A DNA stretch of 64,000 bases, taken from the NCBI GenBank assembly GCA_949358305.1, contig OX442314.1, positions 26,288,001 to 26,352,000 on the forward strand, given 5' to 3'. Positions 1 through 23,707 of this stretch are shown one piece after another. The position numbers and the translations under genes were made by a program. Numbering within the stretch: the first letter of the stretch is position 1; every line of letters begins with the position of its first letter. The DNA is from Strigamia acuminata. Taxonomy: Eukaryota. The notes beneath the pieces are model-generated. The model made no database searches, was not told where the DNA came from, and saw nothing but the letters and a program-made list of their open reading frames with translations.

Positions 1-2547
1 CTCGACCCAAGAGCCTGGGAGGGATTTCTCGTGGGTTACGCCACCGGTACACGTGGTTACCGCGTATGGAATCCTGTGGACAATAGCGTAACAGAATCAA
101 TTCACGTACGCATTGATGAGCATCAGTCTTACAAAAAGACACTGCGGAACCAAAACGGCAATCGCTATCCCATTTACGAGGAACCCGACGTTGGTCAACA
201 ACCTCGAGTCACTTTTGACGACAGTGTCCAATATCTGGACTGGCCCAAGAATGATTCTGATGAAGACTCATCGAATGCATCGGACAATGATAATAACGAC
301 GATGATGATGATGATGAGAATGGAGATGGAAATGTTTCCAGATCAATTTCTATCCCACTAGTACATCTTTCGCCACTTGGGACTCCCGAACGTCAATTAC
401 TAGAGGCATGTGCACTAGCATTACCGGGTTCTGCAACATTGAGACATTCAGCATCGTACCCAACCCTTTATCAAGAAGAACAGGACACTGACGAGGACAT
501 CGATCAACTCGATGATGATGCTATTCAATCGTTCGCAGCCGTATCACAACAATTTGACTCCCCAAATATTTCCTCTGTTCCTGCCAGTTCTCCTGAAATT
601 TCACCACCTGGCTCACCGAATCGCTTCATTACATTACGTCGAAGACACGGTGGGGACATTCTTCAGCACACGATGCCCATACTTGGCCAAGGAGCAATGT
701 CACCTTTGCCAACTGGCTCGACGTCCGTTCCGGCTCATGGAAACAGGACCTCTTTTATGTGGCGTTATGTGGGTGGAGACACAGTCTTCAGGAGATGGGT
801 TCGTGAAGAACACTTAAGGAAAGATCAACGACCAGGATCGATTGATGCGGATGTCTATTATTTTCCGCAACCTGGCCTGCGACTTCGATCACGTAACGAA
901 ATTCAGGCATACTGTACCGTGAACGATCTCCCTTATGATCCTGAATTATTCTTCTTTGGCGTTATGGAACATTCGTTACCGCTGATTCCTCCAGCCCGTC
1001 ATGCAGCTCATCTTTGCCGTACGGAGCCATCATCCTATTCTGATATACCGACATTCCCAGATGCCCCAAAATGGCGCGAAGCCGTTAATGAAGAATTGGA
1101 CATTTTCAAAGAAAGGGAGATTTATCAAGAAGTTCCAAGGCCGCCCAACACTACGGTCTTAGGCTGTAAATGGATCTTCAAATTGAAAACGGATCTAAGC
1201 GGCGAAATAACTCGTTATCGTGCTCGACTCGTCGCACAAGGCTTTCGCCAAACCATCGGGGTAGATTACGAAGAGGTCTTTAGCCCAGTCGTGAACTTTG
1301 TTTTAATCCGGCTATTCTTCTGTCTTCTAGTCGTCCTCAGAGGATGGAAGGATGCTCACCTCGACGTCAAAAGTGCATACCTGTATGGGGACCTGAAGCA
1401 CAAGGTGTACATGCGCATCCCCGCAGGTGCAACTTGTTCGAATCCTGGAAACGTCTGGCTGCTTGTTAAATCCCTCTACGGACTTCACCAATCAGGGAGG
1501 GAGTGGTACGAAAAGTTGGATGGAACGCTTCGAGCCCTCGGTTTTCGGAAGATGCCCGCGTGCAATTGTGTGTATATTTACGGCAATTGTGCCGTCATGT
1601 TAGTTTACGTGGACGACATCGTTCTCTTTTACGCTTCCGACACCGTGTTGACCCGGATTATCCGACTTATTTCGTCCAAATTCGACATCGTTAATCTTGG
1701 TCCCATCACGAAATTATTGGGAGTCGAGTTTATTCGCGACGCCGGACGGACTTTCATCACACAACGTGGCTACATCACAAAGCTCGTTAAGAAGTTCGAA
1801 GTTTCCATCAACCGTCTAGTAAAAGTTCCCGTCACACCTGGGACGACACTCGTGAAGGGGTCAACCGAGAATCTACCGGACTTTCCTTACCGATCCCTAA
1901 TCGGTTCGCTTCTATTCCTCGCGTCGAGAACACGCCCCGATATCTTATTTTCGGTTATTTCGCTGAGCCAGTTCAATACATGTTACGACAAAACGCACAT
2001 CCGAGCCCTCACACAAGTTCTCCAGTACGTGGCTAACACCGTCGACTATCGAATCGAACTTTCCAACTGTAATTCAAGTCAACTGTGGGCTTTTACGGAT
2101 GCGTCGTGGGCAAGCGATCAAGCAACGTCTTTGAGTTTCGGTGGCTATATCAACTTTATCGGAAATGTGCCTATTGGCTGGTCGTGCCGAAAACAGTCAA
2201 CGGTCGCATGTTCTACCATGGAGGCGGAATTTCTTTCTCTAGTGGAATGTGTTAAAGAATCCTTCTGGCTCGACCACATTTACTCCGAATTTCCAGTTCT
2301 CAACAGACAATCCCGACCAATGATCTATTCCGACGCTCTCTCAGCTATCCAGTTTACTGAAAATGACGTGGAAAATTCCAAGACCAAGCATATCCGCGTC
2401 AAATATCATTGGCTGCGAGAGTGGTATAAGGCGGGATGTTTCGACCTTCATAAAGTATCCGGTGAACAGAACATTGCGGACATTTTCACCAAATGGCTTG
2501 GTTCCGAACGTTTGAAGTCCTTAATCGACAAGATCTTCCGGCACTGA
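1..2547 (+). CDS. pol: Copia polyprotein, partial: integrase C-terminus, MBD (~787-950), reverse transcriptase, RNase H
   Basis: Frame is open from base 1 (LDPRAWEGFLVGY). RT motifs CKWIFK, RARLVAQG, LDVKSAYL, SLYGLHQS and YVDD. RNase H motifs TDASWA, STMEAEF, KHIRVKYH and ADIFTK. Stop TGA at 2545-2547. Confidence 0.95.
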   Translation, partial: LDPRAWEGFLVGYATGTRGYRVWNPVDNSVTESIHVRIDEHQSYKKTLRNQNGNRYPIYEEPDVGQQPRVTFDDSVQYLDWPKNDSDEDSSNASDNDNNDDDDDDENGDGNVSRSISIPLVHLSPLGTPERQLLEACALALPGSATLRHSASYPTLYQEEQDTDEDIDQLDDDAIQSFAAVSQQFDSPNISSVPASSPEISPPGSPNRFITLRRRHGGDILQHTMPILGQGAMSPLPTGSTSVPAHGNRTSFMWRYVGGDTVFRRWVREEHLRKDQRPGSIDADVYYFPQPGLRLRSRNEIQAYCTVNDLPYDPELFFFGVMEHSLPLIPPARHAAHLCRTEPSSYSDIPTFPDAPKWREAVNEELDIFKEREIYQEVPRPPNTTVLGCKWIFKLKTDLSGEITRYRARLVAQGFRQTIGVDYEEVFSPVVNFVLIRLFFCLLVVLRGWKDAHLDVKSAYLYGDLKHKVYMRIPAGATCSNPGNVWLLVKSLYGLHQSGREWYEKLDGTLRALGFRKMPACNCVYIYGNCAVMLVYVDDIVLFYASDTVLTRIIRLISSKFDIVNLGPITKLLGVEFIRDAGRTFITQRGYITKLVKKFEVSINRLVKVPVTPGTTLVKGSTENLPDFPYRSLIGSLLFLASRTRPDILFSVISLSQFNTCYDKTHIRALTQVLQYVANTVDYRIELSNCNSSQLWAFTDASWASDQATSLSFGGYINFIGNVPIGWSCRKQSTVACSTMEAEFLSLVECVKESFWLDHIYSEFPVLNRQSRPMIYSDALSAIQFTENDVENSKTKHIRVKYHWLREWYKAGCFDLHKVSGEQNIADIFTKWLGSERLKSLIDKIFRH

Positions 2548-2763: not shown

Positions 2764-3282
2764 TGTTGGTTTTGAGAAACCCAAATGTTTTATGTCGATG
2801 TGATATAGAATCACATTTTGATTGTTTAGTTTAATTATCTTGATGTATTAATTTCACATGTTTATTTACTTTGGTATTATGTTTGCTTTATGCATTTAAG
2901 CATGAAGCATCATGCATTCCCTAGTTTTATATTTATGTAATGCATAATTCCGACACAAGGTGTCGTTGCTTATGTTTTCATCATCCAAGATGGCCGCGCA
3001 CAGTGATGTGTGCTCTCCTTTTGATTTTCCCTTTGAAAAGGATCCCATATGTAAGCTTTTTCTTGTTTATATTAAATGCCTATTATTTTAGAGTCTTTAG
3101 TATTGATTTACAGCACCTTCTGTGCTATTTAAGCGCAGATAAGCGGCATTTTGCCGCGCGCTTTGTTTGGAATCGGTCACGTCGCTTTTACGTTCGTGTC
3201 AGAGACACGACGCCGCCATTTTCGCTTCCACACACTCGGTTTATACCGAATTCGCGCCGCTCGCCTCTGCTACTAACGTTCA
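2764..3282 (+). repeat. 3' LTR of element 1 (519 bp)
   Basis: Starts TGTTGG directly after the PPT and ends CA where the satellite begins. Shares the GCATCATGCAT and A(A/G)ATGGC motifs with the other two LTR families. Its partner LTR is outside the window. Confidence 0.85.
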
Positions 3283-4593
3283 GTTAACGGCCCGTGCGGG
3301 CCGTTGCGGGATCGTGACGGGATCGTCGACGGCCCGTTAACGGCCCGTGCGGGCCGTTGCGGGCCGTTGACGGGCCGTTGACGGGCCGTTAACGGGCCGT
3401 TAACGGGCCGTTACGGCGTGAATCGAAAAAATCAACAACCGACAACACGTACATGAAAACGCGTACAACATTCATAGACATTAATCTCGAATCCTGTTTT
3501 CGGTTTTGCCCCGTTAACGGGCCGTTAACGGGCCGTTAACGGGCCGTTAACGGCCCGTGCGGGCCGTTGCGGGATCGTGACGGGACCGTCGACGGCCCGT
3601 TAACGGCCCGTGCGGGCCGTTGCGGGATCGTGACGGGACCGTCAGCGGCCCGTTAACGGCCCGTGCGGGCCGTTGCGGGATCGTGACGGGATCGTCGACG
3701 GCCCGTTAACGGCCCGTGCGGGCCGTTGCGGGCCGTTGACGGGCCGTTGACGGGCCGTTAACGGGCCGTTAACGGGCCGTTACGGCGTGAATCGAAAAAA
3801 TCAACAACCGACAACACGTACATGAAAACGCGTACAACATTCATAGACATTAATCTCGAATCCTGTTTTCGGTTTTGCCCCGTTAACGGGCCGTTAACGG
3901 CCCGTGCGGGCCGTTGCGGGATCGTGACGGGACCGTCGACGGCCCGTTAACGGCCCGTGCGGGCCGTTGCGGGATCGTGACGGGACCGTCAGCGGCCCGT
4001 TAACGGCCCGTGCGGGCCGTTGCGGGATCGTGACGGGATCGTCGACGGCCCGTTAACGGCCCGTGCGGGCCGTTGCGGGATCGTGACGGGACCGTCAGCG
4101 GCCCGTTAACGGCCCGTGCGGGCCGTTGCGGGATCGTGACGGGATCGTCGACGGCCCGTTAACGGCCCGTGCGGGCCGTTGCGGGCCGTTGACGGGCCGT
4201 TGACGGGCCGTTAACGGGCCGTTAACGGGCCGTTACGGCGTGAATCGAAAAAATCAACAACCGACAACACGTACATGAAAACGCGTACAACATTCATAGA
4301 CATTAATCTCGAATCCTGTTTTTGGTTTTACGCCGTTAACGGGCCGTTAACGGGCCGTTAACGGCCCGTTAACGGCCCGCGTGAGGTCGTACGGGCCGTC
4401 GGCGAGCCGAAGTCCGGGAACGAAGGCCGTGACGGGATCGTGACGGGACCGTCAGCGGCCCGTTAACGGCCCGTGCGGGCCGTTGCGGGATCGTGACGGG
4501 ATCGTCGACGGCCCGTTAACGGCCCGTGCGGGCCGTTGCGGGCCGTTGACGGGCCGTTGACGGGCCGTTAACGGGCCGTTAACGGGCCGTTAC
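3283..4593. repeat. CpG-dense palindromic satellite, family 1
   Basis: Tandem GGCCCGTTAACGG(G)CC and GTGACGGGATCGTGACGGGACCGTC modules, with an AT-richer ~85-bp core at ~3421, 3790 and 4243. Confidence 0.95.
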
Positions 4594-5166
4594 TGTTGGT
4601 CCTTGAAACCACTTCGGACGTTTATTTAACGCTTTTTCGATGCGTAATGACGCTACCTGAACTTTTTCACATCATTGGTTGTTATATTTTCTTTCCCCAA
4701 ATGATTTAGTGTTTATTTCCTACTTAACTGGTTGTTACCAGTATATTTCCGTATATTTACTTTATATTGTAAGGGAAATGCATGGTGCCTGCATTAACTG
4801 TGTCTTAACACACTGGGCATCATGCATCGCCTATCTGTTTATACCTGTGTGTCGCTCGCTTCTGTCACCAGAGCGCACTGCCTTTTATTCCAAGATGGCG
4901 ACGCACACTGCTAAGTGTGCTCCTGTGCTTTTCAATCCTGTTTTCGTAAGTTTTAGGTTAATAAATCGTTTATTTTGTTTATAAATAATTCGTTTCTTGT
5001 GTCTGCACGTAGATAAGTGCAGACACCACGCAAATTCGACCAGAACCGGCTCGAATTCGCGTACACGACGCGCCGCACGTCTCGTGCGTGCTATATCGTA
5101 CGTGTTGGCTTATTTTTAAGCGTTTCCACTGCCTAGTCTGTGCTGTTTTTGCAGCATACCACCACA
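4594..5166 (+). repeat. 5' LTR of element 2
   Basis: Direct repeat of 10830-11402 (offset 6236); no differences seen by eye. Confidence 0.97.
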
Positions 5167-5168
5167 AT

Positions 5169-5180
5169 TGGTAGCAGAGG
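5169..5180 (+). promoter_or_regulatory. Primer-binding site complementary to the initiator tRNA-Met 3' end
   Basis: TGGTAGCAGAGG, 2 nt after the LTR; it is the reverse complement of the animal tRNAi-Met 3' end (...CCUCUGCUACCA). Confidence 0.9.
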
Positions 5181-5842: not shown

Positions 5843-8800
5843 ATGAAAAAGGCCACCGACCAGTCGTCAGGCCATGTGCCGATTCTCGTGACCGGCAATT
5901 ACGAACACTGGCACCGTGCAATTAAAATGCTATTGATGTCCGACGGCGTATGGCACCACGTCACCGAAACGGAGGAACTAGTGAAAGCCAACGTCGATGA
6001 AGACGTTTGGCGAAAATGGCAACGTCGGAAAGCCCGAGCGCTGGGGACCATTTATTGCCACGTCTCGCAGGCCAAACAGTCGGCCCTCGACGGTTGCACC
6101 ACTCCGAAACAGGCGTGGGACATTTTAGCGAAAATTTACGCCCCCAGCTCTCTCGCCCGCCAAGCGGCGATGCGCCGTGAGTTCCTGCAGCTCAAGTTGG
6201 AGCCCGGCGAAGAAATGGCCGATTTCCTCAGCCGCGTTGACCTTATGGTCCGCCAACTTAAAGACGTCGGTGAAGACATCCTCCCTCGACATCACGCGTA
6301 CCAGTATTTAGACTTTCTTCCGGACGAATACGACCAAGCAACTTTTGCCATTTATCATTGGCCGCTGGCAGAGTTTACCCCGGCTAAAGTCTCCGATCAG
6401 TTGTTGTCGGAATATCTACGATTAAAGTCGCATTCGAACCGAAACTCCGGTAATTCCTCCGCTTATGCTACTGGGCGACAAGGACGTAACCAGTCGCGAC
6501 CTCCGCGCCCGCTTGCGCAGGTGCGTTGCTTCAATTGCAACGAGCTTGGACACTACGCCAATAAGTGCCAGCATCCTCGCAAGCAAACAACTGGGCAACA
6601 GCCGGTAGCTACGTTTCAGACACGATCTCGCAGCAAGAGTCGACGCCGCAATAAAGGCTCGAATCCGAATGTGAACCCGAATCAACAGCAGCAGGGACAG
6701 TTTCGCGAGTCTTCACGCCCGCGCCGAGATGCAGCATATCTCCTGTCCGCACCACCTGCGATCCAGGTTCCTACCGTTCATTTCGTCCAATCTCACGAAT
6801 GGATTGTTGACTGCGGCGCCACCGACCACGTTTCACACGTTAAATCGTGGTTCTTGGACTTTGTTGAGGTCGTCCCTTTTAATATCGAATTGGGACAAGG
6901 AAGCTCCAAAGTTACCGGAAAAGGGAATGTTCCAGTCAAGTCACTCATCGATGGCTGTGAATGCACCGTACTTCTCCGCGATGTTTTGTACGCACCTGAT
7001 TTCGGCGCTAATTTAATTTCGGTTTCGCGAGTCGATAAATGTGGGCATCACATACACATTTACAATTCGGAGTTGCATACATATGGGACGGATATCAAAC
7101 AAAGTGTTCTTCGGGCGAAGCAAAAGTCAGGACTTTACTTCGTAGATGGACTAATTTCGCCATTTGCGTCGCCGACTGTTGTTTCAAGTACACCGCCCAT
7201 CCCAATGTCACCTCCGACTACTGCGCCGATGACTCTCATCACGAAGGAGGAAGATTTTCCTGCACTACCGGCAAAGAAGTCCAGACAGAAATCGAACGTC
7301 CAGATAACTGACTTCCGCCTGCCTATCTCTCCCAACACCTTACTACTGCCTCCTCCTTCCCCGATTATTCCAACTCCTGTTCCCGGATCTCAACCACAAC
7401 AGATCCGGATGTATTCCAACATCCTATCATCTCCTCCTCCTCCCGTTGCCAAAACAAAGGCACTTCCTATCCCTAATCCGGTTAAGACTTCGAATGTCAA
7501 CGTTGCTGATGCCACGGGATTATGGCACGCCAGGTTGGGCCATCTCCACACCAAAGCCATGCGGACTTTGGCGAACAATTCCCAAGTTTATGGACTCGAT
7601 CCGGCTGCGGTTCGACAAGAACTTTCCTGCAACTCATGTCGCATTGCCAAGTCCACGCGCGCCTCGCATAAACCGATTCCCACACCTTCGACGACCAAAC
7701 CGTTGGAGTTGCTGCACATGGACGTCTGGGGCCCGTCAAGACTGACTTCGATTGGCGGTGCTGATTATGCCTTCTCCATTGTTGACGACGCGACCCGATA
7801 TTCGTGGATTTTTCCGATTGCACGCAAATCCGACGTTTTTGCGACTTTCAAAGACTTTGTTTCTCGCGTTGAACGCATTACGGATTCCCGCGTCAAATCA
7901 ATTCGCACGGATCGCGGCGGGGAATTTATTTCTAAGACTTTTGACCGTTACCTCGCTGACAAGGGCATTGTCGCACAACGGACCAATCCCGGAAGCCCAC
8001 AAATGAACGGGGTCGCCGAACGCCTAAACCGGACGATGGGCGACTATCTTCGCTCCGTTACCTCCGAAACCGGTTTTCCGCACACACTTTGGGCTGAACT
8101 CGCTGTGACATTTTCGTACGTTAAAAATCGCAGCCCGCATTCGAAACTTAACGACGAAGTTCCATATGTTTTATGGCGCCAGCGTGCCCTCTCCGTCAAA
8201 CATTTCCGAAAAATTGGTTCTAAATGCTGGGTGCATTTCACCGCACCCGGGCGCAACAAAATGGATCCACGGGCGTGGGAAGGATTTCTCGTAGGTTACG
8301 CCTCCAACACTCGCGGTTATCGGGTTTGGAATCCGGCTACGAACACCGTCACGGAATCCGTTCACGTTCAAATCGATGAACGTCAGAATTTCAAACGCTC
8401 GCCGTTTTACGTTCCGGATCCCTACGAAAATGCTCCATTCATGGAGGAGCCCTCTCACGTCACTACACCGTCCCGTGTCACTTTTGACGATGGCGCTTTC
8501 CCATCTGTCCCCTGGTCACGTCGACGTCGTGATTCCGACGATGAATCATCTAATGACGATGATGAATTCCGCCATCGGGCTCCATCAAGCGCTTCATCAG
8601 TCGCTTCATATCGCTCCGTCCTCGAGGAGGTCGAAGAGGACATTGCTGATGAATTGCCTCCTCCTATTCTGTTTGCGGACGATGTACCGGAGGACATCGA
8701 TTTGGACGTCACGCCTGACCCACCACTTCCGCTTTACCGTCCTCGGAGGAGATTACGTCCCGACGCTTTGGCTCGTCAACCTCACACCCCTGAGGCCAGC

Positions 8801-10783
8801 GATAGTGAACTCGACGTTGATCACGATATCGAACAATTTTTCGAACGCTATCCCGAACGTGATTTCGAGCACGACCCCGAAGATGATCCACTTGATAATC
8901 TCCTCGATGATCTCCTCGATAAGGCAGCCGCCTTACCAGCGGCCGCTGCAACGCCTGCACCGCCTCTCGCTCCGTTACGCGCTCTTCACTGCCCCTATCG
9001 TTTTATTGGTGGAGATACGCCCTTCAGCGGATGGAGGAGGGAAGAGCATCTCCGGAAAGAACAAGCGCCTGGCAAAATCAAGGTCGACGTTTATTACTAT
9101 CCGGAGCACGGTGTCCGCTTAAGGTCGAGAGGGGACATCGAAAGATATTGCGTCGCTCACCAACTTCCGTATGAGGAGGACATTTTCTTTTTCGGCAACC
9201 TCGAACATCAATTGCAGGACGAGCAACCTGTTCATCGCGTCCTTATGTGTTTTCGAGAGCCGTCCACGTACGCCGAAGCTGTTAAGCTACCCGAGGCACC
9301 GAAGTGGACCGAGGCAATCGATGAGGAGCTCACGACTTTCAAGGAACGCGAAGTTTATAAGGAAGTTCCACGACCCCCGGACAAGACAATCCTCGGGTGT
9401 AAATGGATTTTTCGGTTGAAATCGGATGCCACCGGGAAAATTCACCGCTACCGTGCTCGACTTGTCGCACAAGGTTTCCGCCAAACAATGGGCGTTGATT
9501 TCGATGAAGTTTTTAGTCCGGTGGTTAACTTCGTGCTCATCCGATTCTTTTTCTGCCTCCTAGTCGTTTTACTAGGATGGAGGGATCTCCACCTCGACGT
9601 CAAGTGTGCCTACCTTTACGGCGACCTCGACCACGAAATTTACATGCGGATTCCCGCCGGCGCCACATGCACCTCACCCGACAACGTCTGGTTGTTAACC
9701 AAGTCACTTTACGGTCTTCACCAGTCGGGGCGCATGTGGTACCAGAAGCTCAACGAGACGTTAACCGACCTCGGATTCCAGAAATTTCCCGCTTGTAATT
9801 GCGTTTACGCATTTGGACATTCGGCTGTTATGTTAGTCTACGTGGACGATATCGTCGTATTTTACGCGTCGGAGAGTATCCGAGACCGTATTTTGGCGCT
9901 GATTTCCAGCAAATTCGACATCGTCAACCTCGGACCAATAACCAAATTACTCGGGGTAGAATTCGTGCGTCGCGATGGGAAAGTTTTCATGTCCCAACGC
10001 TCCTACATCGACAAACTTCTTAAAAAGTTCAACGTTTCGTCAGATGCACTCATTAAAGTGCCTGTCACACCGGGGACCACGCTCGTCAAAGGCTCGTTGG
10101 ATAATCTCCCGGACTTTCCGTACCGATCGCTCATCGGATCGTTATTATTCCTCGCCTCTCGCACTCGTCCCGACATATTATACTCGGTCATCGCTTTATC
10201 GCAGTATAATAACTGCTACGACCACCGCCACATCAAGTGTTTGCTCCAAGTTCTCAAATACGTGGCGAACACGAGCGATTTCTCGATCGAACTCTCGGGG
10301 TGTAATTCCAGTCAGCTGTGGGGATACACAGATGCGTCGTGGGCGAGCGACATTGCGACATCGAGAAGTTTCGGAGGATACATCTTTTATATCGGTTGTG
10401 TGCCAATCGGCTGGAGCTGCAAAAAGCAGACCAGCGTCGCCTGTTCCACCATGGAAGCCGAGTTTGTGGCACTAGTCGAAATCGTTAAAGAGTTATACTG
10501 GTTGGACAGTATCTATCGAGTCTTTCCACCGTTAAACCGATTATCGAAACCGATTATTTTCTCCGATGCCCTCGCCTCGATCCAATTCACGAACAACGAC
10601 ATCGAGAACTCGAAAACCAAACATATTCGAGTGAAGTTCCATTGGCTTCGAGAATGGCATATTGCCGGGTGCTTCGAACTCCGCAAAATTCCGGGTGAAA
10701 TAAATGTTTCAGATATTTTCACGAAATGGCTTAGTTCCGAACGCCTCCGAAATTTGTTGTCCCGGATCTTCATCTCGAAATAA
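5843..10783 (+). CDS. gag-pol: Copia gag-pol polyprotein, 1646 aa from ATG 5843: Gag, CCHC knuckle, protease, integrase, MBD (~9020-9190), RT, RNase H
   Basis: Knuckle CFNCNELGHYANKC. Protease WIVDCGATDH. Integrase WHARLGH...CNSC, LHMDVWG, IRTDRGGEF and NGVAERLNRT. MBD GWRREEHLRK...VDVYYYPEHGVRLRS. RT YVDD. RNase H TDASWA and SDIFTK. No stops or frameshift. Confidence 0.96.
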   Translation: MKKATDQSSGHVPILVTGNYEHWHRAIKMLLMSDGVWHHVTETEELVKANVDEDVWRKWQRRKARALGTIYCHVSQAKQSALDGCTTPKQAWDILAKIYAPSSLARQAAMRREFLQLKLEPGEEMADFLSRVDLMVRQLKDVGEDILPRHHAYQYLDFLPDEYDQATFAIYHWPLAEFTPAKVSDQLLSEYLRLKSHSNRNSGNSSAYATGRQGRNQSRPPRPLAQVRCFNCNELGHYANKCQHPRKQTTGQQPVATFQTRSRSKSRRRNKGSNPNVNPNQQQQGQFRESSRPRRDAAYLLSAPPAIQVPTVHFVQSHEWIVDCGATDHVSHVKSWFLDFVEVVPFNIELGQGSSKVTGKGNVPVKSLIDGCECTVLLRDVLYAPDFGANLISVSRVDKCGHHIHIYNSELHTYGTDIKQSVLRAKQKSGLYFVDGLISPFASPTVVSSTPPIPMSPPTTAPMTLITKEEDFPALPAKKSRQKSNVQITDFRLPISPNTLLLPPPSPIIPTPVPGSQPQQIRMYSNILSSPPPPVAKTKALPIPNPVKTSNVNVADATGLWHARLGHLHTKAMRTLANNSQVYGLDPAAVRQELSCNSCRIAKSTRASHKPIPTPSTTKPLELLHMDVWGPSRLTSIGGADYAFSIVDDATRYSWIFPIARKSDVFATFKDFVSRVERITDSRVKSIRTDRGGEFISKTFDRYLADKGIVAQRTNPGSPQMNGVAERLNRTMGDYLRSVTSETGFPHTLWAELAVTFSYVKNRSPHSKLNDEVPYVLWRQRALSVKHFRKIGSKCWVHFTAPGRNKMDPRAWEGFLVGYASNTRGYRVWNPATNTVTESVHVQIDERQNFKRSPFYVPDPYENAPFMEEPSHVTTPSRVTFDDGAFPSVPWSRRRRDSDDESSNDDDEFRHRAPSSASSVASYRSVLEEVEEDIADELPPPILFADDVPEDIDLDVTPDPPLPLYRPRRRLRPDALARQPHTPEASDSELDVDHDIEQFFERYPERDFEHDPEDDPLDNLLDDLLDKAAALPAAAATPAPPLAPLRALHCPYRFIGGDTPFSGWRREEHLRKEQAPGKIKVDVYYYPEHGVRLRSRGDIERYCVAHQLPYEEDIFFFGNLEHQLQDEQPVHRVLMCFREPSTYAEAVKLPEAPKWTEAIDEELTTFKEREVYKEVPRPPDKTILGCKWIFRLKSDATGKIHRYRARLVAQGFRQTMGVDFDEVFSPVVNFVLIRFFFCLLVVLLGWRDLHLDVKCAYLYGDLDHEIYMRIPAGATCTSPDNVWLLTKSLYGLHQSGRMWYQKLNETLTDLGFQKFPACNCVYAFGHSAVMLVYVDDIVVFYASESIRDRILALISSKFDIVNLGPITKLLGVEFVRRDGKVFMSQRSYIDKLLKKFNVSSDALIKVPVTPGTTLVKGSLDNLPDFPYRSLIGSLLFLASRTRPDILYSVIALSQYNNCYDHRHIKCLLQVLKYVANTSDFSIELSGCNSSQLWGYTDASWASDIATSRSFGGYIFYIGCVPIGWSCKKQTSVACSTMEAEFVALVEIVKELYWLDSIYRVFPPLNRLSKPIIFSDALASIQFTNNDIENSKTKHIRVKFHWLREWHIAGCFELRKIPGEINVSDIFTKWLSSERLRNLLSRIFISK

Positions 10784-10829: not shown

Positions 10830-11402
10830 TGTTGGTCCTTGAAACCACTTCGGACGTTTATTTAACGCTTTTTCGATGCGTAATGACGCTACCTGAACTT
10901 TTTCACATCATTGGTTGTTATATTTTCTTTCCCCAAATGATTTAGTGTTTATTTCCTACTTAACTGGTTGTTACCAGTATATTTCCGTATATTTACTTTA
11001 TATTGTAAGGGAAATGCATGGTGCCTGCATTAACTGTGTCTTAACACACTGGGCATCATGCATCGCCTATCTGTTTATACCTGTGTGTCGCTCGCTTCTG
11101 TCACCAGAGCGCACTGCCTTTTATTCCAAGATGGCGACGCACACTGCTAAGTGTGCTCCTGTGCTTTTCAATCCTGTTTTCGTAAGTTTTAGGTTAATAA
11201 ATCGTTTATTTTGTTTATAAATAATTCGTTTCTTGTGTCTGCACGTAGATAAGTGCAGACACCACGCAAATTCGACCAGAACCGGCTCGAATTCGCGTAC
11301 ACGACGCGCCGCACGTCTCGTGCGTGCTATATCGTACGTGTTGGCTTATTTTTAAGCGTTTCCACTGCCTAGTCTGTGCTGTTTTTGCAGCATACCACCA
11401 CA
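10830..11402 (+). repeat. 3' LTR of element 2
   Basis: Follows the PPT GAAGGAGGGAA and matches the 5' LTR. Confidence 0.97.
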
Positions 11403-12485
11403 GTTACGGCGTAAATCGAAAAAATCAACAACCGACAACACGTACGTGAAAACGCGTACAACATTCATAGACATTAATCTCGAATCCTGTTTTTGGTTTT
11501 ACGCCGTTAACGGGCCGTTAACGGGCCGTTAACGGCCCGTTAACGGCCCGCGTGAGGTCGTACGGGCCGTCGGCGAGCCGAAGTCCGGGAACGAAGGCCG
11601 TGACGGGATCGTGACGGGACCGTCAGCGGCCCGTTAACGGCCCGTGCGGGCCGTTGCGGGATCGTGACGGGATCGTCGACGGCCCGTTAACGGCCCGTGC
11701 GGGCCGTTGCGGGCCGTTGACGGGCCGTTGACGGGCCGTTAACGGGCCGTTAACGGGCCGTTACGGCGTAAATCGAAAAAATCAACAACCGACAACACGT
11801 ACGTGAAAACGCGTACAACATTCATAGACATTAATCTCGAATCCTGTTTTTGGTTTTACGCCGTTAACGGGCCGTTAACGGCCCGTTAACGGCCCGTTAA
11901 CGGCCCGCACAGGCCGTGACGGGATCGTGACGGGACTGTCGGCGGCCCGTTAACGGCCCGCACGAGCCGTGACGGGATCGTGACGGGACCGTCGGCAGCC
12001 CGTTAACGGCCCGTACGACTCCATGCGGGCCGTTGACGGGATCGTGACGGGACCGTCGGCAGCCCGTTAACGGCCCGCACGGGCCGTGACGGGATCGTGA
12101 CGGGACCGTCGGCGGCCCGTTAACGGCCCGCACGAGCCGTGACGGGATCGTGACGGGACCGTCGGCAGCCCGTTAACGGCCCGCACGGGCCGTGACGGGA
12201 TCGTGACGGGACCGTCGGCGGCCCGTTAACGGCCCGCACGAGCCGTGACGGGATCGTGACGGGACCGTCGGCGGCCCGTTAACGGCTTGTACGGGCCGTT
12301 ACGGGATCGTGACGGGACCGTCGGCGGCCCGTTAACGGCTCGCACGGGCCGTTAACGGGGTCGTTACGGGACCGTCGGCGGCCCGTGCGGCGGCCTCGCC
12401 AACCTCGTGCGGCCCGTTAACGGCCCGTACGGGCCGTTACGGGGCCGTTGCGGGATCGTCGGCGGCCCGTTAACGGCCCGCACGG
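11403..12485. repeat. CpG-dense satellite, family 1
   Basis: Same modules as 3283-4593; cores at ~11414 and 11771. Confidence 0.93.
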
Positions 12486-12770
12486 GACAACGGGCGCCAA
12501 CGAGCGCCGGTAGTCCCGGTAATTTGTTTCAAAATAAATATTTGTCACCGTCTCCCCTCCCTCCTCCTCCTCCCCCTCCTCTCCCTCTCGAGGCCAGACA
12601 CGGCCGCTCCAAAATACGAACCACGACGATGCCTCCGTACCGATAGACCGAGTGGGTCGCGCGACAGACAATGCGCGCAAACTACCGTCGGCGCACGGTG
12701 TGCACGGCGCAACACCACGGAAGTAACTACCGGTGCGCCCCTCGTGCGTGCGAGGCAATCCCGAGCTCGC

Positions 12771-13620
12771 TTAACCTTGGGGTATGTGTGCGGATTTTGT
12801 CGGGGGCGAAAGGGTCCCGCTTTTTAACATTACGGCGGCCTATACGTTGTTTCGTTGATCGCGACTGCGATGCGGAATTTGCGGATGTTGTTTTGGCCGA
12901 GTAGTTCGTGCGACCGAGCGCGTTTTGTTCGTTGCTTTTCGGTGTTCGGTGGGTTTTGTGACCGGTCAAGGGTTTCGCTAAAACGTGGTTTTTGAGTACG
13001 GGGGGGAGGGGGGGGATCGGGTCGCGTGCTCCGAAAGCGCCGCGACGCGCCGTGACTTGGGCCAAAAACGACCCGGTCGGAAACCGGGTCCCGGGCTTCG
13101 TCGAGGCGTGGTCCCGATCGGGACAAACTCTTCCGGAAAATGTCCGGTGGAATGTTGAGAGTGTCGATGGACGACGTTCGAGTTTATATCGTAAGTAAGT
13201 AAGTATCTGACAAAACTTGCACAGAATTTTGTCAACATTTGATAAATTTCCACAGAATTTAACGTTGTTTTGCTAAAACCTGCGGAAACGTGTCTAGTCG
13301 GGCAGAAACGTCTCGTAAAATGTTGCTGAAATTCCGTGGAAATTTGTCAAAAATTGACAAAAGTTGGTGACCGACCCACATCGCGTTGCGGCGCGGTCGG
13401 AGCACGCGACCCGATCCCCCCCCCCCCCCTCCCCCCGTCCCCAAAAAACCACGCCTCGAGGAACCCCGAGGTTCGGTTTCCGACCGGGTCGCCTCTTGAT
13501 CCGACTCGGGGCGCGTCACGGCGCGGTCGGAGGACGGCCCTCGCCCCCAAAAACCACACTCCGGGTCACGTGGTCTCGCACCCGACTCTTTCAGTTTTCC
13601 CGTTTTCAGCCCGTTACGGG
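12771..13620 (+). repeat. Satellite-associated dispersed repeat starting TTAACCTTGGGG
   Basis: Internally deleted copy at 27248-27660; inverted partial copy at ~23080-23450; internal inverted repeat (~12990-13100 vs ~13375-13490). Confidence 0.8.
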
Positions 13621-14989
13621 ATCGTGACGGGACTGTCGGCGGCCCGTTAACGGCCCGCACGAGCCGTGACGGGATCGTGACGGGACCGTTGGCGGCCCGT
13701 TAACGGCCCGCACGGGCCGTGACGGGATCGTGACGGGACCGTCGGCGGCCCGTTAACGGCCCGTACGACTCCATGCGGGCCGTTGACGGGCCGTTGACGG
13801 GCCGTTAACGGGCCGTTAACGGGCCGTTACGGCGTAAATCGAAAAAATCAACAACCGACAACACGTACGTGAAAACGCGTACAACATTCATAGACATTAA
13901 TCTTGAATCCTGTTTTTGGTTTTACGCCGTTAACGGGCCGTTAACGGCCCGTTAACGGCCCGTTAACGGCCCGCGTGAGGTCGTACGGGCCGTCGGCGAG
14001 CCGAAGTCCGGGAACGAAGGCCGTGACGGGATCGTGACGGGACCGTCAGCGGCCCGTTAACGGCCCGTGCGGGCCGTTGCGGGATCGTGACGGGATCGTC
14101 GACGGCCCGTTAACGGCCCGTGCGGGCCGTTGCGGGCCGTTGACGGGCCGTTGACGGGCCGTTAACGGGCCGTTAACGGGCCGTTACGGCGTGAATCGAA
14201 AAAATCAACAACCGACAACACGTACATGAAAACGCGTACAACATTCATAGACATTAATCTCGAATCCTGTTTTCGGTTTTGCCCCGTTAACGGGCCGTTA
14301 ACGGGCCGTTAACGGGCCGTTAACGGCCCGTGCGGGCCGTTGCGGGATCGTGACGGGACCGTCGACGGCCCGTTAACGGCCTGTGCGGGCCGTTGCGGGA
14401 TCGTGACGGGACCGTCAGCGGCCCGTTAACGGCCCGTGCGGGCCGTTGCGGGATCGTGACGGGATCGTCGACGGCCCGTTAACGGCCCGTGCGGGCCGTT
14501 GCGGGATCGTGACGGGACCGTCAGCGGCCCGTTAACGGCCCGTGCGGGCCGTTGCGGGATCGTGACGGGATCGTCGACGGCCCGTTAACGGCCCGTGCGG
14601 GCCGTTGCGGGCCGTTGACGGGCCGTTGACGGGCCGTTAACGGGCCGTTAACGGGCCGTTACGGCGTGAATCGAAAAAATCAACAACCGACAACACGTAC
14701 ATGAAAACGCGTACAACATTCATAGACATTAATCTCGAATCCTGTTTTCGGTTTTGCCCCGTTAACGGGCCGTTAACGGCCCGTGCGGGCCGTTGCGGGA
14801 TCGTGACGGGACCGTCGACGGCCCGTTAACGGCCCGTGCGGGCCGTTGCGGGATCGTGACGGGACCGTCAGCGGCCCGTTAACGGCCCGTGCGGGCCGTT
14901 GCGGGATCGTGACGGGATCGTCGACGGCCCGTTAACGGCCCGTGCGGGCCGTTGCGGGATCGTGACGGGACCGTCAGCGGCCCGTTAAC
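13607..14989. repeat. CpG-dense satellite, family 1
   Basis: Same modules; cores at ~13837, 14194 and 14669. Confidence 0.93.
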
Positions 14990-15542
14990 TGTTGGACTTT
15001 GGAACCGCTTTTCACCTAATTAAATCGTTTTTCGATGTGAAATGACTTTGAAATGTTTATTTTATTATCCATCGGTTATCTTTTCTTATTCGGGGTAATT
15101 TAGTATTGTTTCTTATGTTTTTCCTTAGTTTCTGTGTAAAGGGAATGCATGATGCCTTTTAGATGTGTCTTATCCATCTGGCATCATGCATCCTCTATTC
15201 TGTGTGTATTTCTACTTATTGTTTCTATTTTCGGCCACCAGATGTCTCTGGCACTTTGCAAATGGCCGCGCACACAGCCAGTGTGTTTCTCTATGTTTTC
15301 AAATGGTTTTTGGATCAATTATGTAAGTTTTCTCGAATTAAAGTGTATTTTGTTAATTATCAGTATTAGTTTATGTGCCACACGTCTTTATAAGTGTGGT
15401 ACACGCGTTTTCTGGCCCAATACAGACCCGAACTCGCGTTTACGCATCACGGCAATTTTTCCAGCTCATGCATTGCCGTGAGCACGTTATTTTCACGCTT
15501 CCAGCACGATTTATCGTGCATTTATTGCGCCACAGTGCTACA
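14990..15542 (+). repeat. 5' LTR of element 3
   Basis: Direct repeat of 21219-21771 (offset 6229); no differences seen by eye. Confidence 0.97.
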
Positions 15543-15544
15543 AG

Positions 15545-15556
15545 TGGTAGCAGAGG
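15545..15556 (+). promoter_or_regulatory. Primer-binding site (tRNAi-Met)
   Basis: TGGTAGCAGAGG, 2 nt after the 5' LTR. Confidence 0.9.
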
Positions 15557-16264: not shown

Positions 16265-19200
16265 ATGCAAAAGGCTTCCGAAGCGACGTTGGGACGTGTA
16301 CCGGTCCTGACGACCGGCAACTACGAACAATGGCAACGAACAGTTAAGATGTTGCTCAAAAGTGAAGGCCTGTGGCATCACGTCACAGAAGACGGCGAGG
16401 AGGATTTTCTGAAGACGGCGGATGATAAAGAGAAACGCAAATATCAACGTCGGAAGGAACGAGCCCTAGGAACAATTTATTGTTTGGTATCCGAAGCCAA
16501 ACAGTCGGCACTCGATGGCTGCGAGACACCGAAGGAACAATGGGACATGCTCGCCAAGATCTACGCCCCCAGTTCACTTGCCCGTCAGGCAGCTATGCGC
16601 CGACAGTTCTTGCAATTGAAACTGGAGCCGAACGAGGAGATGCCCGATTTCCTGGGGCGTGTAGACCTGATGGTTCGTCAATTGAAGGACATCGGAGAGG
16701 ACATTCTCCCTCGACATCAGGCCTACCAGTACCTCGATTTTCTTCCAGCGGATTACGACCAGGCAACGTTCTCCATTTACCATTGGCCGTTGGCGAATTT
16801 TACCCCGGCCAAAGTCTCCGAACAGCTCTTGTCGGAATACCTTCGTTTGAAGTCGAAATCCGACCACGATACGAAGAAGACGTCGGCATTCGCCGCGGAC
16901 AATCGCAACCGCAGTCAATCTCGCAATCCTCGTCCACTATCGCAAATTTGTTGTTTCAATTGCGATCAGATGGGCCACTACGCGAACAAATGCCCTCTTC
17001 CGCGCCGACAATCGAAGGAACAGCAACCGGCAGCTGCACTACAAGGACGATCTCGCAGCAAAAACCGACGTCGAAAGGGAACCAATTCTCAGCAACCGGG
17101 TGGTCAAAGCCGTGAAATTTCCCGCCCGCGACGTGATGCTGCGTACCTCTTGTCTGCGCCACCAGTTGTTACAGCACCGACTGTGCATTTCCTCCAATCC
17201 CACGAATGGATCGTTGATTGCGGCGCAACCGACCACGTGTCGCACGTTAAAGCGTGGTTCACGAACTTTGTTTCCGTTGTCCCGTTTAACATCGAGTTAG
17301 GACAAGGCAGTTCGAAGGTCACAGGCAAAGGTGACGTTCCGGTCAAGTCGCTCATCGATGGCTGCGAATGCACCGTAATGCTACGCGACGTCTTATTCGC
17401 ACCTGACTTCGGCGCCAACTTAATCTCGGTTTCTCGGATTGATAAATGCGGACATCACATCCACATTCACAACTCGGAATTGCATACGTATGAAACGGAC
17501 ATCAAACTAAGTGTTCTTCGGGCGAAACAGAAGTCTGGACTTTATTTCGTGGATGGGCTTATCTCGCCATTCGCCGCTCCGACTAATGTTTCGAGTTCTC
17601 CACCCGTTTCATCGTTGCCTCCGACTCCGACACCGACCACTCTAGTGACGAAGGAAGAGGACTTTCCCGCATTGCCCAAGTCTTCCAACAAGGCTAAGAC
17701 GAAGTCGGCTGACAATATGACCGATTTCCGCTTGCCCGTCTCCTCCAACACCTTACTGGTCCCTTCACTTTTTCCTACCAGTCCTGCTCCCATTCCCGGA
17801 TCCCAACCTCAACAGATCCGGATGTATTCCAATGCCCTCACCTCTCCTCTTCCCGTTGCCAAGTCAAACGCAACATCACCTCCTCCTGTTGCTAAGTCAA
17901 ATGCAACATCACCTCCTAAACCGGTTACTACGTCGGTCAACGTCGCGGATGCCACGGGATTGTGGCACAGCAGACTGGGTCACCTGCACACCAAAGCCAT
18001 GCGGACTTTGGCTGCTAACTCCCAGGTTTACGGACTTGATCCAGCTGCTGTTCGACAGGAACTTTCATGCAACACGTGCCGTGTCGCCAAGTCTACGCGT
18101 GCTTCGCATAAGCCGATTTCCGCACCTTCGACCACGAAACCGCTTGAATTGCTTCACATGGACGTCTGGGGCCCGTCGAGACTGCCTTCCATTGGTGGCG
18201 CTAATTTCGCCTTCACCATTATCGACGACGCCACCAGGTATGCCTGGCTTTTCCCGATTGCCCGTAAATCCGATGTTTTCGCTACGTTCAAAGACTTTGT
18301 TTCCCGTGTCGAACGTATAGCCGATTGCCGGATCAAAACGATTCGTACCGACCGTGGAGGAGAATTCATTTCAAGGGATTTTGACCGTTATCTCGCCGAC
18401 AAGGGTATTGTTGCGCAACGGACCAACCCCGCGAGCCCACAGATGAATGGAGTCGCCGAACGCCTGAACCGGACGATGGGCGATTATCTCCGCTCCGTTA
18501 GATCCGAAACCGGATTTCCGCATACGCTTTGGGCCGAACTTGCTGTGACATTCGTGTACATCAAGAACCGAAGTCCACATTCGAAGCTCAACGACGAAAT
18601 CCCGTACATTTTGTGGCGCCAGCGAGCTCTCTCCGTCAGACATTTTCGTAAAATCGGTTCCAAGTGCTGGGTGCACTTCACCGCACCTGGACGCAATAAA
18701 CTGGACCCTCGAGCTTGGGAGGGATTTCTCGTCGGCTACGCGTCTGGAACTCGAGGATATCGTGTTTTGAATCCGGCTACGAACACTGTCACCGAAACTG
18801 TCCACGTCCAAATCGATGAACGGCAGAACTTTAAACGCTCGCCCTTTTATGTTCCGGATCCGGATGACAATGCTCCACCCATGGAGGAGCCTGCTCGTGG
18901 CCACACCCCGTCGCGTGTCACTTTTCATGATAATTTCCCAACTCAACCTTGGCCTCGACGACGTCGCGATTCGGATAACGATTCTTCCGCCGGCAGTAGT
19001 GACGATGATGGAATTATCAGTCGTGCTCAGTCTGTCGCTTCGACCGCTCCGTCTTTCGCTTCATTTGCCCCGTCCGCCGCTGCAAGCGTGCCTCTGGATG
19101 GTGAGGCTATTCCTGATGGCTCCGTGACCGCTGCCGATGACTCCGTTACTGCAGCGACCGTTGCAGGACATGGCCAATTTTCTCCAACCATACGTTCCAC

Positions 19201-21172
19201 GCGTTTACCCCAGCTGCGACGTTCGATCTCTTACCCAACTCTTCCATGTCTTGACGATACCACGGCGATGTCTGTACAGGGTTCTGACTTTGACGACGAC
19301 CTTCTTGACGAAGCGGCCGCCTTACCTATTCCCGCTCCGGGTACGCCTAATTTGGCCCCTTTACGTGCTCTTCATTGCCCTTGGAGTTTTATTGGCGGCG
19401 TTTCGCCCTTCAGCGGATGGAGGAGAGAGGAACATCTCCGGAAAGATCAAATCCCGGGAAAGATCAAGGTCGACGTTTATTATTATCCGGAACACGGTGT
19501 CCGCTTGCGGTCGCAGAACGATATCGCCGCTTATTGTTTCGCACATCGGCTACCGTATGACGAGTCTATTTTCTTTTTTGGCAATTTGGAACACCACATG
19601 CCCTATGTTCCACCATCGCCTCATCGTGTCTTCATGTGTTTTCGGGAACCGGCCACATATGCCGAAGCAGTTAAATTGCCCGAAGCACCGAAATGGACCG
19701 AAGCAATCGACGAGGAGCTTTCTACTTTCAAGAAGCGCGAGGTTTACAAAGAGGTTCCGCGTCCACCGGATAAGACAGTCCTAGGTTGCAAGTGGATTTT
19801 CAAGTTAAAATCGGACGCCACCGGGACAATTCATCGATACCGTGCCCGACTTGTCGCACAAGGTTTCCGCCAAACAATGGGCGTTGATTTCGATGAAGTT
19901 TTTAGTCCGGTAGTTAACTTCGTGCTCATCCGATTTTTCTTCTGTCTTCTAGTCGTCTTGTTGGGATGGAGGGATACTCATCTCGACGTAAAATGTGCCT
20001 ACCTCTACGGCGACCTCGACCACGAAATCTACATGCGGATTCCCGCCGGTGCCACATGCTCCTCGCCCGACAACGTCTGGTTGTTGACCAAGTCGCTTTA
20101 CGGTCTTCATCAGTCGGGGCGCATGTGGTACCAAAAGCTCGATGAAACGTTAACCGGACTCGGATTCCAGAAATTTCCGGCTTGTAATTGCGTTTACGCA
20201 TTTGGACATTCGGCCATCATGTTAGTTTACGTTGACGACATCGTTTTATTTTACGCGTCGGAGAACATCCGAGACCGTATTCTTGCATTGATCACGAGCA
20301 AGTTCGAAATCGTCAACCTCGGCCCGATAACCAAGTTGCTCGGAGTGGAATTCGAGCGTCGTGACGGGAAAGTCTTCATGACTCAACGCAATTACATCGA
20401 TAAACTCCTCAAAAAGTTTAATGTTTCGTCCGATGCACTCATTAAAGTGCCTGTCACACCGGGAACCACGCTCGTGAAAGGCTCGTTGGACAATCTCCCA
20501 GATTTCCCGTATCGGTCGCTCATCGGATCATTACTTTTTCTCGCTTCTCGCACTCGTCCCGATATCTTATACTCGGTCATCGCTCTCTCGCAGTACAACA
20601 ACTGCTACGACCAAAGCCACATTAAGTGTTTGCTTCAAGTTCTTCGATATGTGGCCAATACGAGTGATTATTCCATCGAACTTTCGAAATGCGATTCGAG
20701 TCAACTATGGGGTTGCACAGACGCCTCTTGGGCCTCCGACATTGCTACATCGAGATCATTCGGCGGATACATTGTCTACATCGGAAGTGTGCCCATTGGC
20801 TGGAGCTGCAAAAAACAGACCAGTGTTGCTTGCTCCACCATGGAAGCCGAGTTTGTGGCATTAGTCGAAATCGTCAAGGAATTATACTGGTTGGACAGTA
20901 TTTATCGAGTATTTCCGCCTTTACGTCGATTATCGAAACCGATCATATTTTCCGATGCCCTCGCCTCGATTCAGTTCACGAACAACGACATCGAGAACTC
21001 GAAAACGAAACATATTCGAGTGAAGTTTCACTGGCTTCGTGAGTGGCATATTGCCGGATGTTTCGAACTCCGCAAGATTCCGGGTGAGATAAATGTATCC
21101 GACATTTTCACCAAGTGGCTCAGTTCAGAGCGCCTCCGGAATTTATTATCACGCATTTTCGTCTCGAAGTAA
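16265..21172 (+). CDS. gag-pol: Copia gag-pol polyprotein, 1635 aa from ATG 16265, with MBD (~19405-19580)
   Basis: Same domain motifs as element 2. The ATG context GCAATCATG is shared with element 2. MBD GWRREEHLRKDQIPGKIKVDVYYYPEHGVRLRSQNDIAAYC. Confidence 0.96.
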   Translation: MQKASEATLGRVPVLTTGNYEQWQRTVKMLLKSEGLWHHVTEDGEEDFLKTADDKEKRKYQRRKERALGTIYCLVSEAKQSALDGCETPKEQWDMLAKIYAPSSLARQAAMRRQFLQLKLEPNEEMPDFLGRVDLMVRQLKDIGEDILPRHQAYQYLDFLPADYDQATFSIYHWPLANFTPAKVSEQLLSEYLRLKSKSDHDTKKTSAFAADNRNRSQSRNPRPLSQICCFNCDQMGHYANKCPLPRRQSKEQQPAAALQGRSRSKNRRRKGTNSQQPGGQSREISRPRRDAAYLLSAPPVVTAPTVHFLQSHEWIVDCGATDHVSHVKAWFTNFVSVVPFNIELGQGSSKVTGKGDVPVKSLIDGCECTVMLRDVLFAPDFGANLISVSRIDKCGHHIHIHNSELHTYETDIKLSVLRAKQKSGLYFVDGLISPFAAPTNVSSSPPVSSLPPTPTPTTLVTKEEDFPALPKSSNKAKTKSADNMTDFRLPVSSNTLLVPSLFPTSPAPIPGSQPQQIRMYSNALTSPLPVAKSNATSPPPVAKSNATSPPKPVTTSVNVADATGLWHSRLGHLHTKAMRTLAANSQVYGLDPAAVRQELSCNTCRVAKSTRASHKPISAPSTTKPLELLHMDVWGPSRLPSIGGANFAFTIIDDATRYAWLFPIARKSDVFATFKDFVSRVERIADCRIKTIRTDRGGEFISRDFDRYLADKGIVAQRTNPASPQMNGVAERLNRTMGDYLRSVRSETGFPHTLWAELAVTFVYIKNRSPHSKLNDEIPYILWRQRALSVRHFRKIGSKCWVHFTAPGRNKLDPRAWEGFLVGYASGTRGYRVLNPATNTVTETVHVQIDERQNFKRSPFYVPDPDDNAPPMEEPARGHTPSRVTFHDNFPTQPWPRRRRDSDNDSSAGSSDDDGIISRAQSVASTAPSFASFAPSAAASVPLDGEAIPDGSVTAADDSVTAATVAGHGQFSPTIRSTRLPQLRRSISYPTLPCLDDTTAMSVQGSDFDDDLLDEAAALPIPAPGTPNLAPLRALHCPWSFIGGVSPFSGWRREEHLRKDQIPGKIKVDVYYYPEHGVRLRSQNDIAAYCFAHRLPYDESIFFFGNLEHHMPYVPPSPHRVFMCFREPATYAEAVKLPEAPKWTEAIDEELSTFKKREVYKEVPRPPDKTVLGCKWIFKLKSDATGTIHRYRARLVAQGFRQTMGVDFDEVFSPVVNFVLIRFFFCLLVVLLGWRDTHLDVKCAYLYGDLDHEIYMRIPAGATCSSPDNVWLLTKSLYGLHQSGRMWYQKLDETLTGLGFQKFPACNCVYAFGHSAIMLVYVDDIVLFYASENIRDRILALITSKFEIVNLGPITKLLGVEFERRDGKVFMTQRNYIDKLLKKFNVSSDALIKVPVTPGTTLVKGSLDNLPDFPYRSLIGSLLFLASRTRPDILYSVIALSQYNNCYDQSHIKCLLQVLRYVANTSDYSIELSKCDSSQLWGCTDASWASDIATSRSFGGYIVYIGSVPIGWSCKKQTSVACSTMEAEFVALVEIVKELYWLDSIYRVFPPLRRLSKPIIFSDALASIQFTNNDIENSKTKHIRVKFHWLREWHIAGCFELRKIPGEINVSDIFTKWLSSERLRNLLSRIFVSK

Positions 21173-23475: not shown

Positions 23476-23707
<232 letters not shown>

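What the first reader, a model, noticed from the sequence alone, without database searches (positions are those of the whole stretch)
787..19580. Three Copia retrotransposons each carry a methyl-CpG-binding domain between integrase and RT
Seen: after a long variable linker, each polyprotein has W.REEHLRK.Q.PG.I..DVYY.P..G.RLRS..[ED]I..YC (~787-950, ~9020-9190, ~19405-19580). Established: this matches the MBD fold (MeCP2 GWTRKLKQRK...YDVYLINPQGKAFRSKVEL). The equivalents of the mCpG-reading R111, D121, Y123 and R133 are all kept. The position is where Ty5 targeting domains and chromovirus chromodomains sit. From memory, such CopiaMBD elements were reported in Strigamia centipedes and spiders (de Mendoza, Pflueger and Lister, 2019), so the fusion itself is probably known. 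Inference: the MBD stays on integrase and steers integration.
Basis: partly seen in the sequence, partly recalled or inferred. Interest (0 to 1): 0.85.

Follow-up and report, generated by a model that had tools for sequence, protein, structure and literature searches.

The report
Methylation-reading retrotransposons in CpG-rich repeat
Three jumping genes of an already described centipede and spider family each carry a domain of the methylated-DNA-reading type and all three sit in the same CpG-rich tandem repeat, which fits, but does not prove, the idea that this domain likely steers where they insert.

Summary
Observation confirmed. Three separate Copia elements (E1 cut by the window edge; E2 and E3 complete, LTR pairs identical) carry an MBD about 20 residues upstream of the RT start motif. 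Pfam PF01429 hits all three (two above cut-off), the predicted fold matches MBD2/MeCP2/MBD4, the four mCpG-reading residues are kept, and dN/dS is 0.14. They belong to the published CopiaMBD family (de Mendoza 2019): the nearest MBD and RNase H relatives are Strigamia maritima elements, so the fusion is known.

New here: all three inserted independently into one CpG-dense (17 CpG/100 bp) 53-bp tandem array, at GTTAA/GTTAC/TTAAC sites. E2 and E3 have 5-bp target duplications and empty paralogous sites nearby. The array is 12% of the window's host DNA (naive p 0.002), but a local null (0.12) or an integrase sequence preference (0.36) removes the significance. CpG-decay tests for methylation of the array were inconclusive.

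The family also reaches Araneus and Trichonephila and includes a subclade with a degenerate MBD. Steering of integration by the MBD is likely but inferred. New member of a known kind; interest 0.35.

The parts
1..2547 (+). E1 pol ORF, 5' part outside the window (integrase SH3 end, linker, MBD, RT, RNase H)
757..960 (+). E1 MBD (W at 796; R 817, D 850, R 886)
2764..3282 (+). E1 3' LTR (TG...CA) after a purine tract; followed by GTTAA of the array (likely right target duplication; left side not in window)
3283..4593 (.). CpG-dense 53-bp/11-bp tandem array with 357/475-bp higher-order units, 17.2 CpG/100 bp
4594..5166 (+). E2 5' LTR, 573 bp, identical to 3' LTR; preceded by target duplication GTTAC (4589-4593)
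5169..5180 (+). E2 primer-binding site (match to initiator tRNA-Met 3' end is recalled, not tested)
5843..10783 (+). E2 gag-pol ORF, 1646 aa (gag, zinc knuckle, protease, integrase, MBD, RT, RNase H)
8993..9196 (+). E2 MBD (W at 9032; R 9053, D 9086, R 9122)
10830..11402 (+). E2 3' LTR, followed by target duplication GTTAC (11403-11407)
11403..12480 (.). continuation of the tandem array interrupted by E2
13315..13647 (.). left arm of an inverted repeat (about 90% complementary to 23037-23364) enclosing the second array
13611..14989 (.). second copy of the CpG-dense array, 17.1 CpG/100 bp
14990..15542 (+). E3 5' LTR, 553 bp, identical to 3' LTR; preceded by target duplication TTAAC (14985-14989)
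16265..21172 (+). E3 gag-pol ORF, 1635 aa, same architecture as E2
19379..19582 (+). E3 MBD (W at 19418; R 19439, D 19472, R 19508)
21219..21771 (+). E3 3' LTR, followed by target duplication TTAAC (21772-21776)
21772..23084 (.). continuation of the second array; units switch orientation near 22850
27648..28105 (.). short third copy of the array, no insertion

Best explanation
Three independently inserted Copia retrotransposons of the published CopiaMBD family each encode an MBD just upstream of reverse transcriptase and all lie in one CpG-dense tandem array; the domain likely stays on the end of integrase and likely tethers the integration complex to densely methylated CpG DNA. Shown: domain identity, reading residues, purifying selection, family membership, independent insertion of E2 and E3 with 5-bp duplications, CpG-dense flanks. 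Inferred: (1) the protease cuts at the hydrophobic patch just before the EP-[ST]-Y RT start motif, leaving an integrase-linker-MBD product; (2) these MBDs prefer mCpG as three tested Strigamia relatives do; (3) the array is methylated; (4) the integrase core then picks the A/T-rich GTTAAC-type core between two CpGs.
For: Pfam, PDB profile and fold all give MBD. R/D/Y/R are kept in 3 of 3. E2 vs E3 dN/dS: MBD 0.14, adjacent linker 0.34, integrase core 0.065, RT 0.057; amino-acid identity 82% vs 37% in the linker. RT tree: the 33 MBD-like rows among 112 form one clade, support 1.0, no MBD-less row inside. RNase H tree: window elements group with three S. maritima pieces, support 0.999. P0136 (S. 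maritima) is by eye near-identical in its MBD to DAP-seq-tested CopiaMBD1 and is 44% identical to the E2 MBD over 43 residues. Flanks carry 13-19 CpG/100 bp against a host median of 8.7; the array is 11.8% of host DNA; p(3 of 3) is 0.0016 uniform and 0.01 weighted by local CpG. Empty paralogous sites exist for E2 and E3. One further flank of the E2 LTR family in run X3 has 5 CpG in 30 letters (counted by eye). C-terminal integrase modules direct Ty1/Ty5 and Tal1 integration.
Against: Only three insertions, one window, and no MBD-less LTR elements as a control. Restricting the null to the 0-28 kb cluster gives p 0.12; a post-hoc null limited to GTTAA/TTAAC/GTTAC/GTAAC sites gives 0.36, because 71% of such sites lie in the array. 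Other CpG-rich satellites (12-14 CpG/100 bp, 15.5% of host DNA) hold none of the three. CpG-decay evidence for methylation is not significant: 11 vs 6, p 0.30; singletons 7 vs 1, p 0.065, post hoc; LTR-region variants p 0.09-0.15, and four-fold sites go the other way, 11/78 vs 22/92. CpG o/e is above 1 in every compartment tested. This 'REEH' subclade was not among the three domains tested by DAP-seq (by eye). E1 scores below Pfam's cut-off. The X3 flank is not array sequence.
Confidence: 0.65

Rival explanations
1. The MBD is real but does not choose the site. The clustering comes from a sequence preference of the integrase core for the GTTAAC-type palindrome, from local hopping into a permissive repeat region, or from selection sparing insertions in dispensable repeats.
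For: All three target 5-mers belong to a class that makes up 4.6% of array 5-mers, and 71% of that class in the window's host DNA is in the array (p 0.36); the local null gives 0.12. The array spacer is one to two orders of magnitude deeper than the LTR in three runs, so it is likely a large target genome-wide (qualitative only). PMC6673714 itself cannot exclude post-insertion selection.
Against: The sequence null was chosen after seeing the data. With a generic A/T-core preference the array would be disfavoured (4.8% of sites). The X3 flank has a different terminal 5-mer yet is CpG-dense. The MBD is under purifying selection, so it does something.
Confidence: 0.2
2. The MBD acts outside site selection or without methylation. 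It is cut free or binds CpG regardless of methylation, for example to compete with host MBD silencing proteins or to bind the element's own DNA.
For: A 250-residue low-complexity linker separates it from the integrase SH3 region and could hold a cleavage site. The loop and V164 position differ from MBD2. No significant CpG decay in the array. Close relatives P0006-P0010 keep an MBD-like domain without the reading residues.
Against: Three Strigamia CopiaMBD domains bound native but not amplified DNA. The Tyr that distinguishes methyl-readers is kept. The domain sits where targeting modules sit in other Copia integrases.
Confidence: 0.1
3. The array is a centromeric or heterochromatic satellite and integration is tethered by a chromatin protein, as for Arabidopsis Tal1, with CpG density incidental.
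For: High-copy array with higher-order units. There is precedent for Copia targeting satellite arrays through the integrase C-terminus.
Against: The arrays here are only 1-3 kb, partly enclosed by inverted arms like a foldback-type element. No chromatin data. The domain keeps its DNA-reading residues.
Confidence: 0.05

Closest known systems
CopiaMBD of Strigamia maritima and Stegodyphus (de Mendoza, Pflueger, Lister 2019, PMC6673714)
   Same: Single ORF gag-PR-INT-MBD-RT-RH; reading residues kept; purifying selection; CpG-dense flanks; same subclade as two rows of its Table S3 (TRINITY_DN9193, DN7553, by eye) and UniRef T1IKL2, T1JMZ2, T1IGT7; 47% identity over 62 residues to T1IKL2.
   Different: Only 49-64% identical to the S. 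maritima RT-end/RNase H pieces, so new families and probably another host; this subclade was not binding-tested; the paper's main text has no mention of satellite, tandem repeat or target-site duplication; dN/dS 0.14 is slightly above its <0.1.
Ty5 and Ty1 integrase targeting domains (PMC7459421)
   Same: Copia-type element with a module at the integrase C-terminus that can determine insertion sites.
   Different: Those are short peptides that bind host proteins (Sir4, AC40); here it is a folded domain predicted to read DNA directly, and targeting is untested.
Tal1/EVD ALE Copia elements of Arabidopsis (PMC11735389)
   Same: Copia insertion into tandem-repeat arrays governed by the integrase C-terminal region.
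   Different: Tal1 follows CENH3 chromatin and no MBD was mentioned in the passages read; centromeric status of this array is unknown.
Host MBD2/MeCP2/MBD4 domains
   Same: Fold and R166/D176/Y178/R188/S189 equivalents.
   Different: One extra loop residue, His at V164, and no repression domains; embedded in a polyprotein.

Membership tests
CopiaMBD | Copia order gag-PR-INT-RT(RVT_2)-RH in one ORF between LTRs | tested here: met
   E2 and E3 complete; E1 visible only from the integrase SH3 region on
CopiaMBD | MBD (PF01429) between INT and RT with no stop | tested here: met
   3 of 3 hit, 2 of 3 above the gathering score; fold
CopiaMBD | RT/RH lies in the monophyletic CopiaMBD clade | tested here: met
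   one clade with spider and S. maritima MBD-bearing elements. The paper's own RT rows were not in the tree (supplement cells cut); Strigamia is represented by three RNase H-region pieces.
CopiaMBD | DNA-binding residues, notably the Tyr, conserved | tested here: met
CopiaMBD | MBD under purifying selection | tested here: met
   dN/dS 0.14 E2 vs E3; dS saturated against E1
CopiaMBD | Young copies in flanks denser in CpG than those of other LTR elements | tested here: inconclusive
   flanks in the top 2-11% of the window's 926 host 300-bp windows, but no other LTR element was available as a control
CopiaMBD | Methylation-dependent DNA binding of the MBD | not testable with these tools
   shown for three other Strigamia clades only
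CopiaMBD | Flanks methylated | tested here: inconclusive
   indirect CpG-decay tests p 0.065-0.49 and one in the opposite direction
Centrophilic Copia (Tal1-like) | Integration into CENH3-bearing satellite arrays | not testable with these tools
   no chromatin data; arrays here are short

The most novel reading that the evidence does not exclude
These CopiaMBD families are repeat-tropic. Their MBD reads the paired methylated CpGs of the CCGTTAACGG palindrome (107 copies in the arrays, 0 elsewhere in the window's host DNA) and positions integrase to cut between them, so three diverged lineages converge on one CpG-dense array.
Probability: 0.2. Interest if true: 0.65.

Novelty: new member of a known kind. 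Interest (0 to 1): 0.35.

Why it matters
The fusion is published, but whether the MBD actually directs integration is still open. This locus offers complete elements with identical LTRs and defined target sites in a single repeat, where the 2019 study reported assembly gaps and collapsed copies. That makes the steering hypothesis testable by counting insertions per repeat family. The wider spider range and a degenerate-MBD subclade give natural contrasts.

Tried and rejected
One insertion duplicated three times: rejected. The LTRs are 52-61% alike between elements, the target duplications differ, and empty sites exist.

A novel loop insertion: rejected as new. The same 11-residue spacing is in Strigamia P0128.

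A protein search with the MBD region alone found 0 of 8 candidates; a search with MBD+RT+RH worked.

CpG-decay tests were inconclusive.

No whole genome is held, so there was no genome-wide count. No RNA holder was listed among 6 runs. Only one usable extra flank was seen (18 loose ends shown, 23 hidden; the X1 row merges 3 contigs at 0.59 agreement and was not used). Flanks of other E3-family copies remain unsampled.

Host genes: 125 of 134 candidate frames outside the elements were scanned; 3 weak Pfam hits, all below cut-off. No Rfam match. The host is not identified; nearest named relatives suggest a myriapod, probably a centipede (inference).

Earlier findings of the scan: none.

Literature: 'CopiaMBD' occurs in 1 paper. 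Searches listed no follow-up on the family's range or on satellite targeting. A centromere-atlas preprint had 0 hits for MBD or centipede terms. The library lacks most subscription papers.

Full report
Observation. Three stop-free Copia ORFs lie on the + strand: E1 1-2547 (5' part outside the window), E2 5843-10783 from its first ATG, and E3 16265-21172. Pfam gives gag, zinc knuckle, protease, integrase, SH3, MBD and RVT_2 in that order. MBD scores are 18.7, 23.9 and 24.5 bits against a cut-off of 21.

It is an MBD. Profiles of the domain retrieve MBD proteins from the PDB (13 best of 22 at E<=1; 30 of 30 at E<=0.001 with a 19-row profile). The second AlphaFold model has pLDDT 84. Foldseek reached no E<=0.001 but listed only MBD/TAM domains through rank 42. 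VIA-align gave Z about 6 with rmsd 2.3-3.9 over 61-73 residues, well above the first unrelated row at Z 2.8; Z under 8 is middling on its own. The R166, D176, Y178, R188 and S189 equivalents of MBD2 are kept in 3 of 3 (residue roles from one passage of PMC12466977). MBD2 and MeCP2 columns correspond in the published alignment. The loop is one residue longer and V164 is His, both as in Strigamia P0128. Between E2 and E3 the MBD has dN/dS 0.14 and 82% identity, against 0.34 and 37% for the linker and 0.03-0.07 for the catalytic domains; comparisons with E1 are saturated at silent sites.

It is the published family. PMC6673714 (parts 1-4 of 7 of the text; supplement table parts 1, 42, 43 and 164 of 164; term searches) describes CopiaMBDs, shows methylation-dependent binding for three domains and reports CpG-denser flanks, but only hypothesises steering. 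Two rows of its Table S3 share the GG..WRREEH.R subclade pattern with the window (by eye). A search of 1.84 billion representatives gave 54 hits; six top full-domain hits that I looked up are all S. maritima, and the other 4 of those 10 look-ups were unnamed RT relatives. Of 10 further look-ups, 4 were Strigamia and 6 spiders. An MBD+RT+RH search listed the best 120 of 1189 relatives, 11 with a precomputed MBD. An iterated profile built from these same rows found an MBD-like domain in 30 of the 120. In an RT/RH tree of 112 of 123 rows (11 dropped for short coverage; FastTree, midpoint root) the 33 MBD-like rows form one clade with support 1.0 and no MBD-less row inside. In an RNase H tree of 61 rows (33 MBD-like, 25 of 79 MBD-less, 3 Strigamia pieces) the window elements group with the Strigamia pieces at 0.999. 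Identity to those pieces is only 49-64%, so these are new families. Twenty of 33 rows keep all four reading residues.

E2 (4594-11402) and E3 (14990-21771) have identical LTR pairs (0 of 573 and 0 of 553 differences), TG...CA ends, a shared primer-binding site and purine tract, and 5-bp duplications GTTAC and TTAAC. E1's 3' LTR is followed by GTTAA. All three sit in one family of tandem array: a 53-bp unit with 10 CpG, 11-bp sub-repeats and 357/475-bp higher-order units, 17 CpG/100 bp. Empty versions of the E2 and E3 sites occur in other units of the arrays (E3: exact over 200 bp each side at 4106; E2: exact over 100 bp each side at 11760 and 22255). The LTRs are 52-61% alike between elements. 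So these are independent insertions, and at least two are very recent.

How strong is the clustering? The arrays are 5,539 of 47,127 host bases (11.8%). Three of three has p 0.0016 under uniform placement, 0.01 weighted by local CpG and 0.0001 under a generic A/T-core preference. It is 0.12 if only the 0-28 kb cluster counts, and 0.36 if integrase prefers GTTAA-type 5-mers, a post-hoc null. Other CpG-rich satellites (15.5% of host DNA) have no insertion. Public contigs show the array spacer far deeper than the LTR (qualitative only), and one further flank of the E2 family that is CpG-dense but not array. Sequence-based tests for methylation of the target were inconclusive. In S. maritima most transposons are methylated (PMC7343188 passages) and are among the CpG-densest regions, so lack of CpG depletion does not exclude methylation. 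The host here is not identified.

Mechanism. The MBD ends about 20 residues before the EP-[ST]-Y motif that opens RT. A hydrophobic patch just before that motif recurs in relatives with and without MBD; that it is the integrase/RT cleavage site is inferred from recalled Ty1/copia processing. The MBD would then be the last folded domain of integrase, where Ty1 and Ty5 carry their targeting modules (PMC7459421 passages) and where Tal1/EVD specificity maps (PMC11735389 passages). Most likely (0.65) it tethers the intasome to dense mCpG, and the integrase core cuts at the A/T-rich core between two CpGs. Rivals: placement independent of the MBD (0.2), an MBD role elsewhere or blind to methylation (0.1), and protein-tethered satellite targeting (0.05).

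Verdict. The fusion is known, so this is a new member of a known kind. The convergence on one CpG-dense array, the wider spider range and the degenerate subclade are modest additions; I found no paper reporting them in searches, within a library that lacks most subscription journals. The RT alignment cells of the paper's supplement were cut, so its RT rows could not be compared directly. Interest 0.35.

Noticed in passing
proteins P0006-P0010: Five unnamed close RT relatives form a clade (support 0.999) with an MBD-like domain in the same place that lacks the Asp and Tyr equivalents (5 of 5) and the second Arg (4 of 5), and has no Pfam MBD hit at E<=0.05: a possibly rewired reader.
   Followed up: partly
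proteins P0011, P0015, P0028, P0031, P0040, P0125, P0137, P0141, P0152, P0160, P0168: Copia-linked MBD-like domains are labelled Araneus ventricosus, Trichonephila clavipes and T. inaurata, beyond the two genera published. 'Nephila clavipes' was on the paper's scanned list (synonymy recalled).
   Followed up: partly
window 13315-23364: The second array is enclosed by inverted arms about 90% complementary, like a foldback-type non-autonomous element; related ends recur at 12765-13057 and 27242-27533.
   Followed up: partly
window 38549-42480 and 55380-58760: 56-bp and 551-bp tandem repeats with CpG o/e near 3 and strong TpG/CpA under-representation; no Copia insertion in them.
   Followed up: no
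window 42971-43800, 52400-54700, 59200-64000: About 1.68-kb repeat units with 31-bp sub-repeats in inverted arrangement, several tandem copies.
   Followed up: no
window 23700-37200: Exon-like GC-rich, low-complexity frames separated by (TTTA)n-rich stretches, including a Lys/Glu-rich frame at 34098-35261; no Pfam hit above cut-off.
   Followed up: partly
whole window: CpG o/e is 1.63 over the window, high for an animal (recalled); no CpG depletion in any compartment tested.
   Followed up: partly
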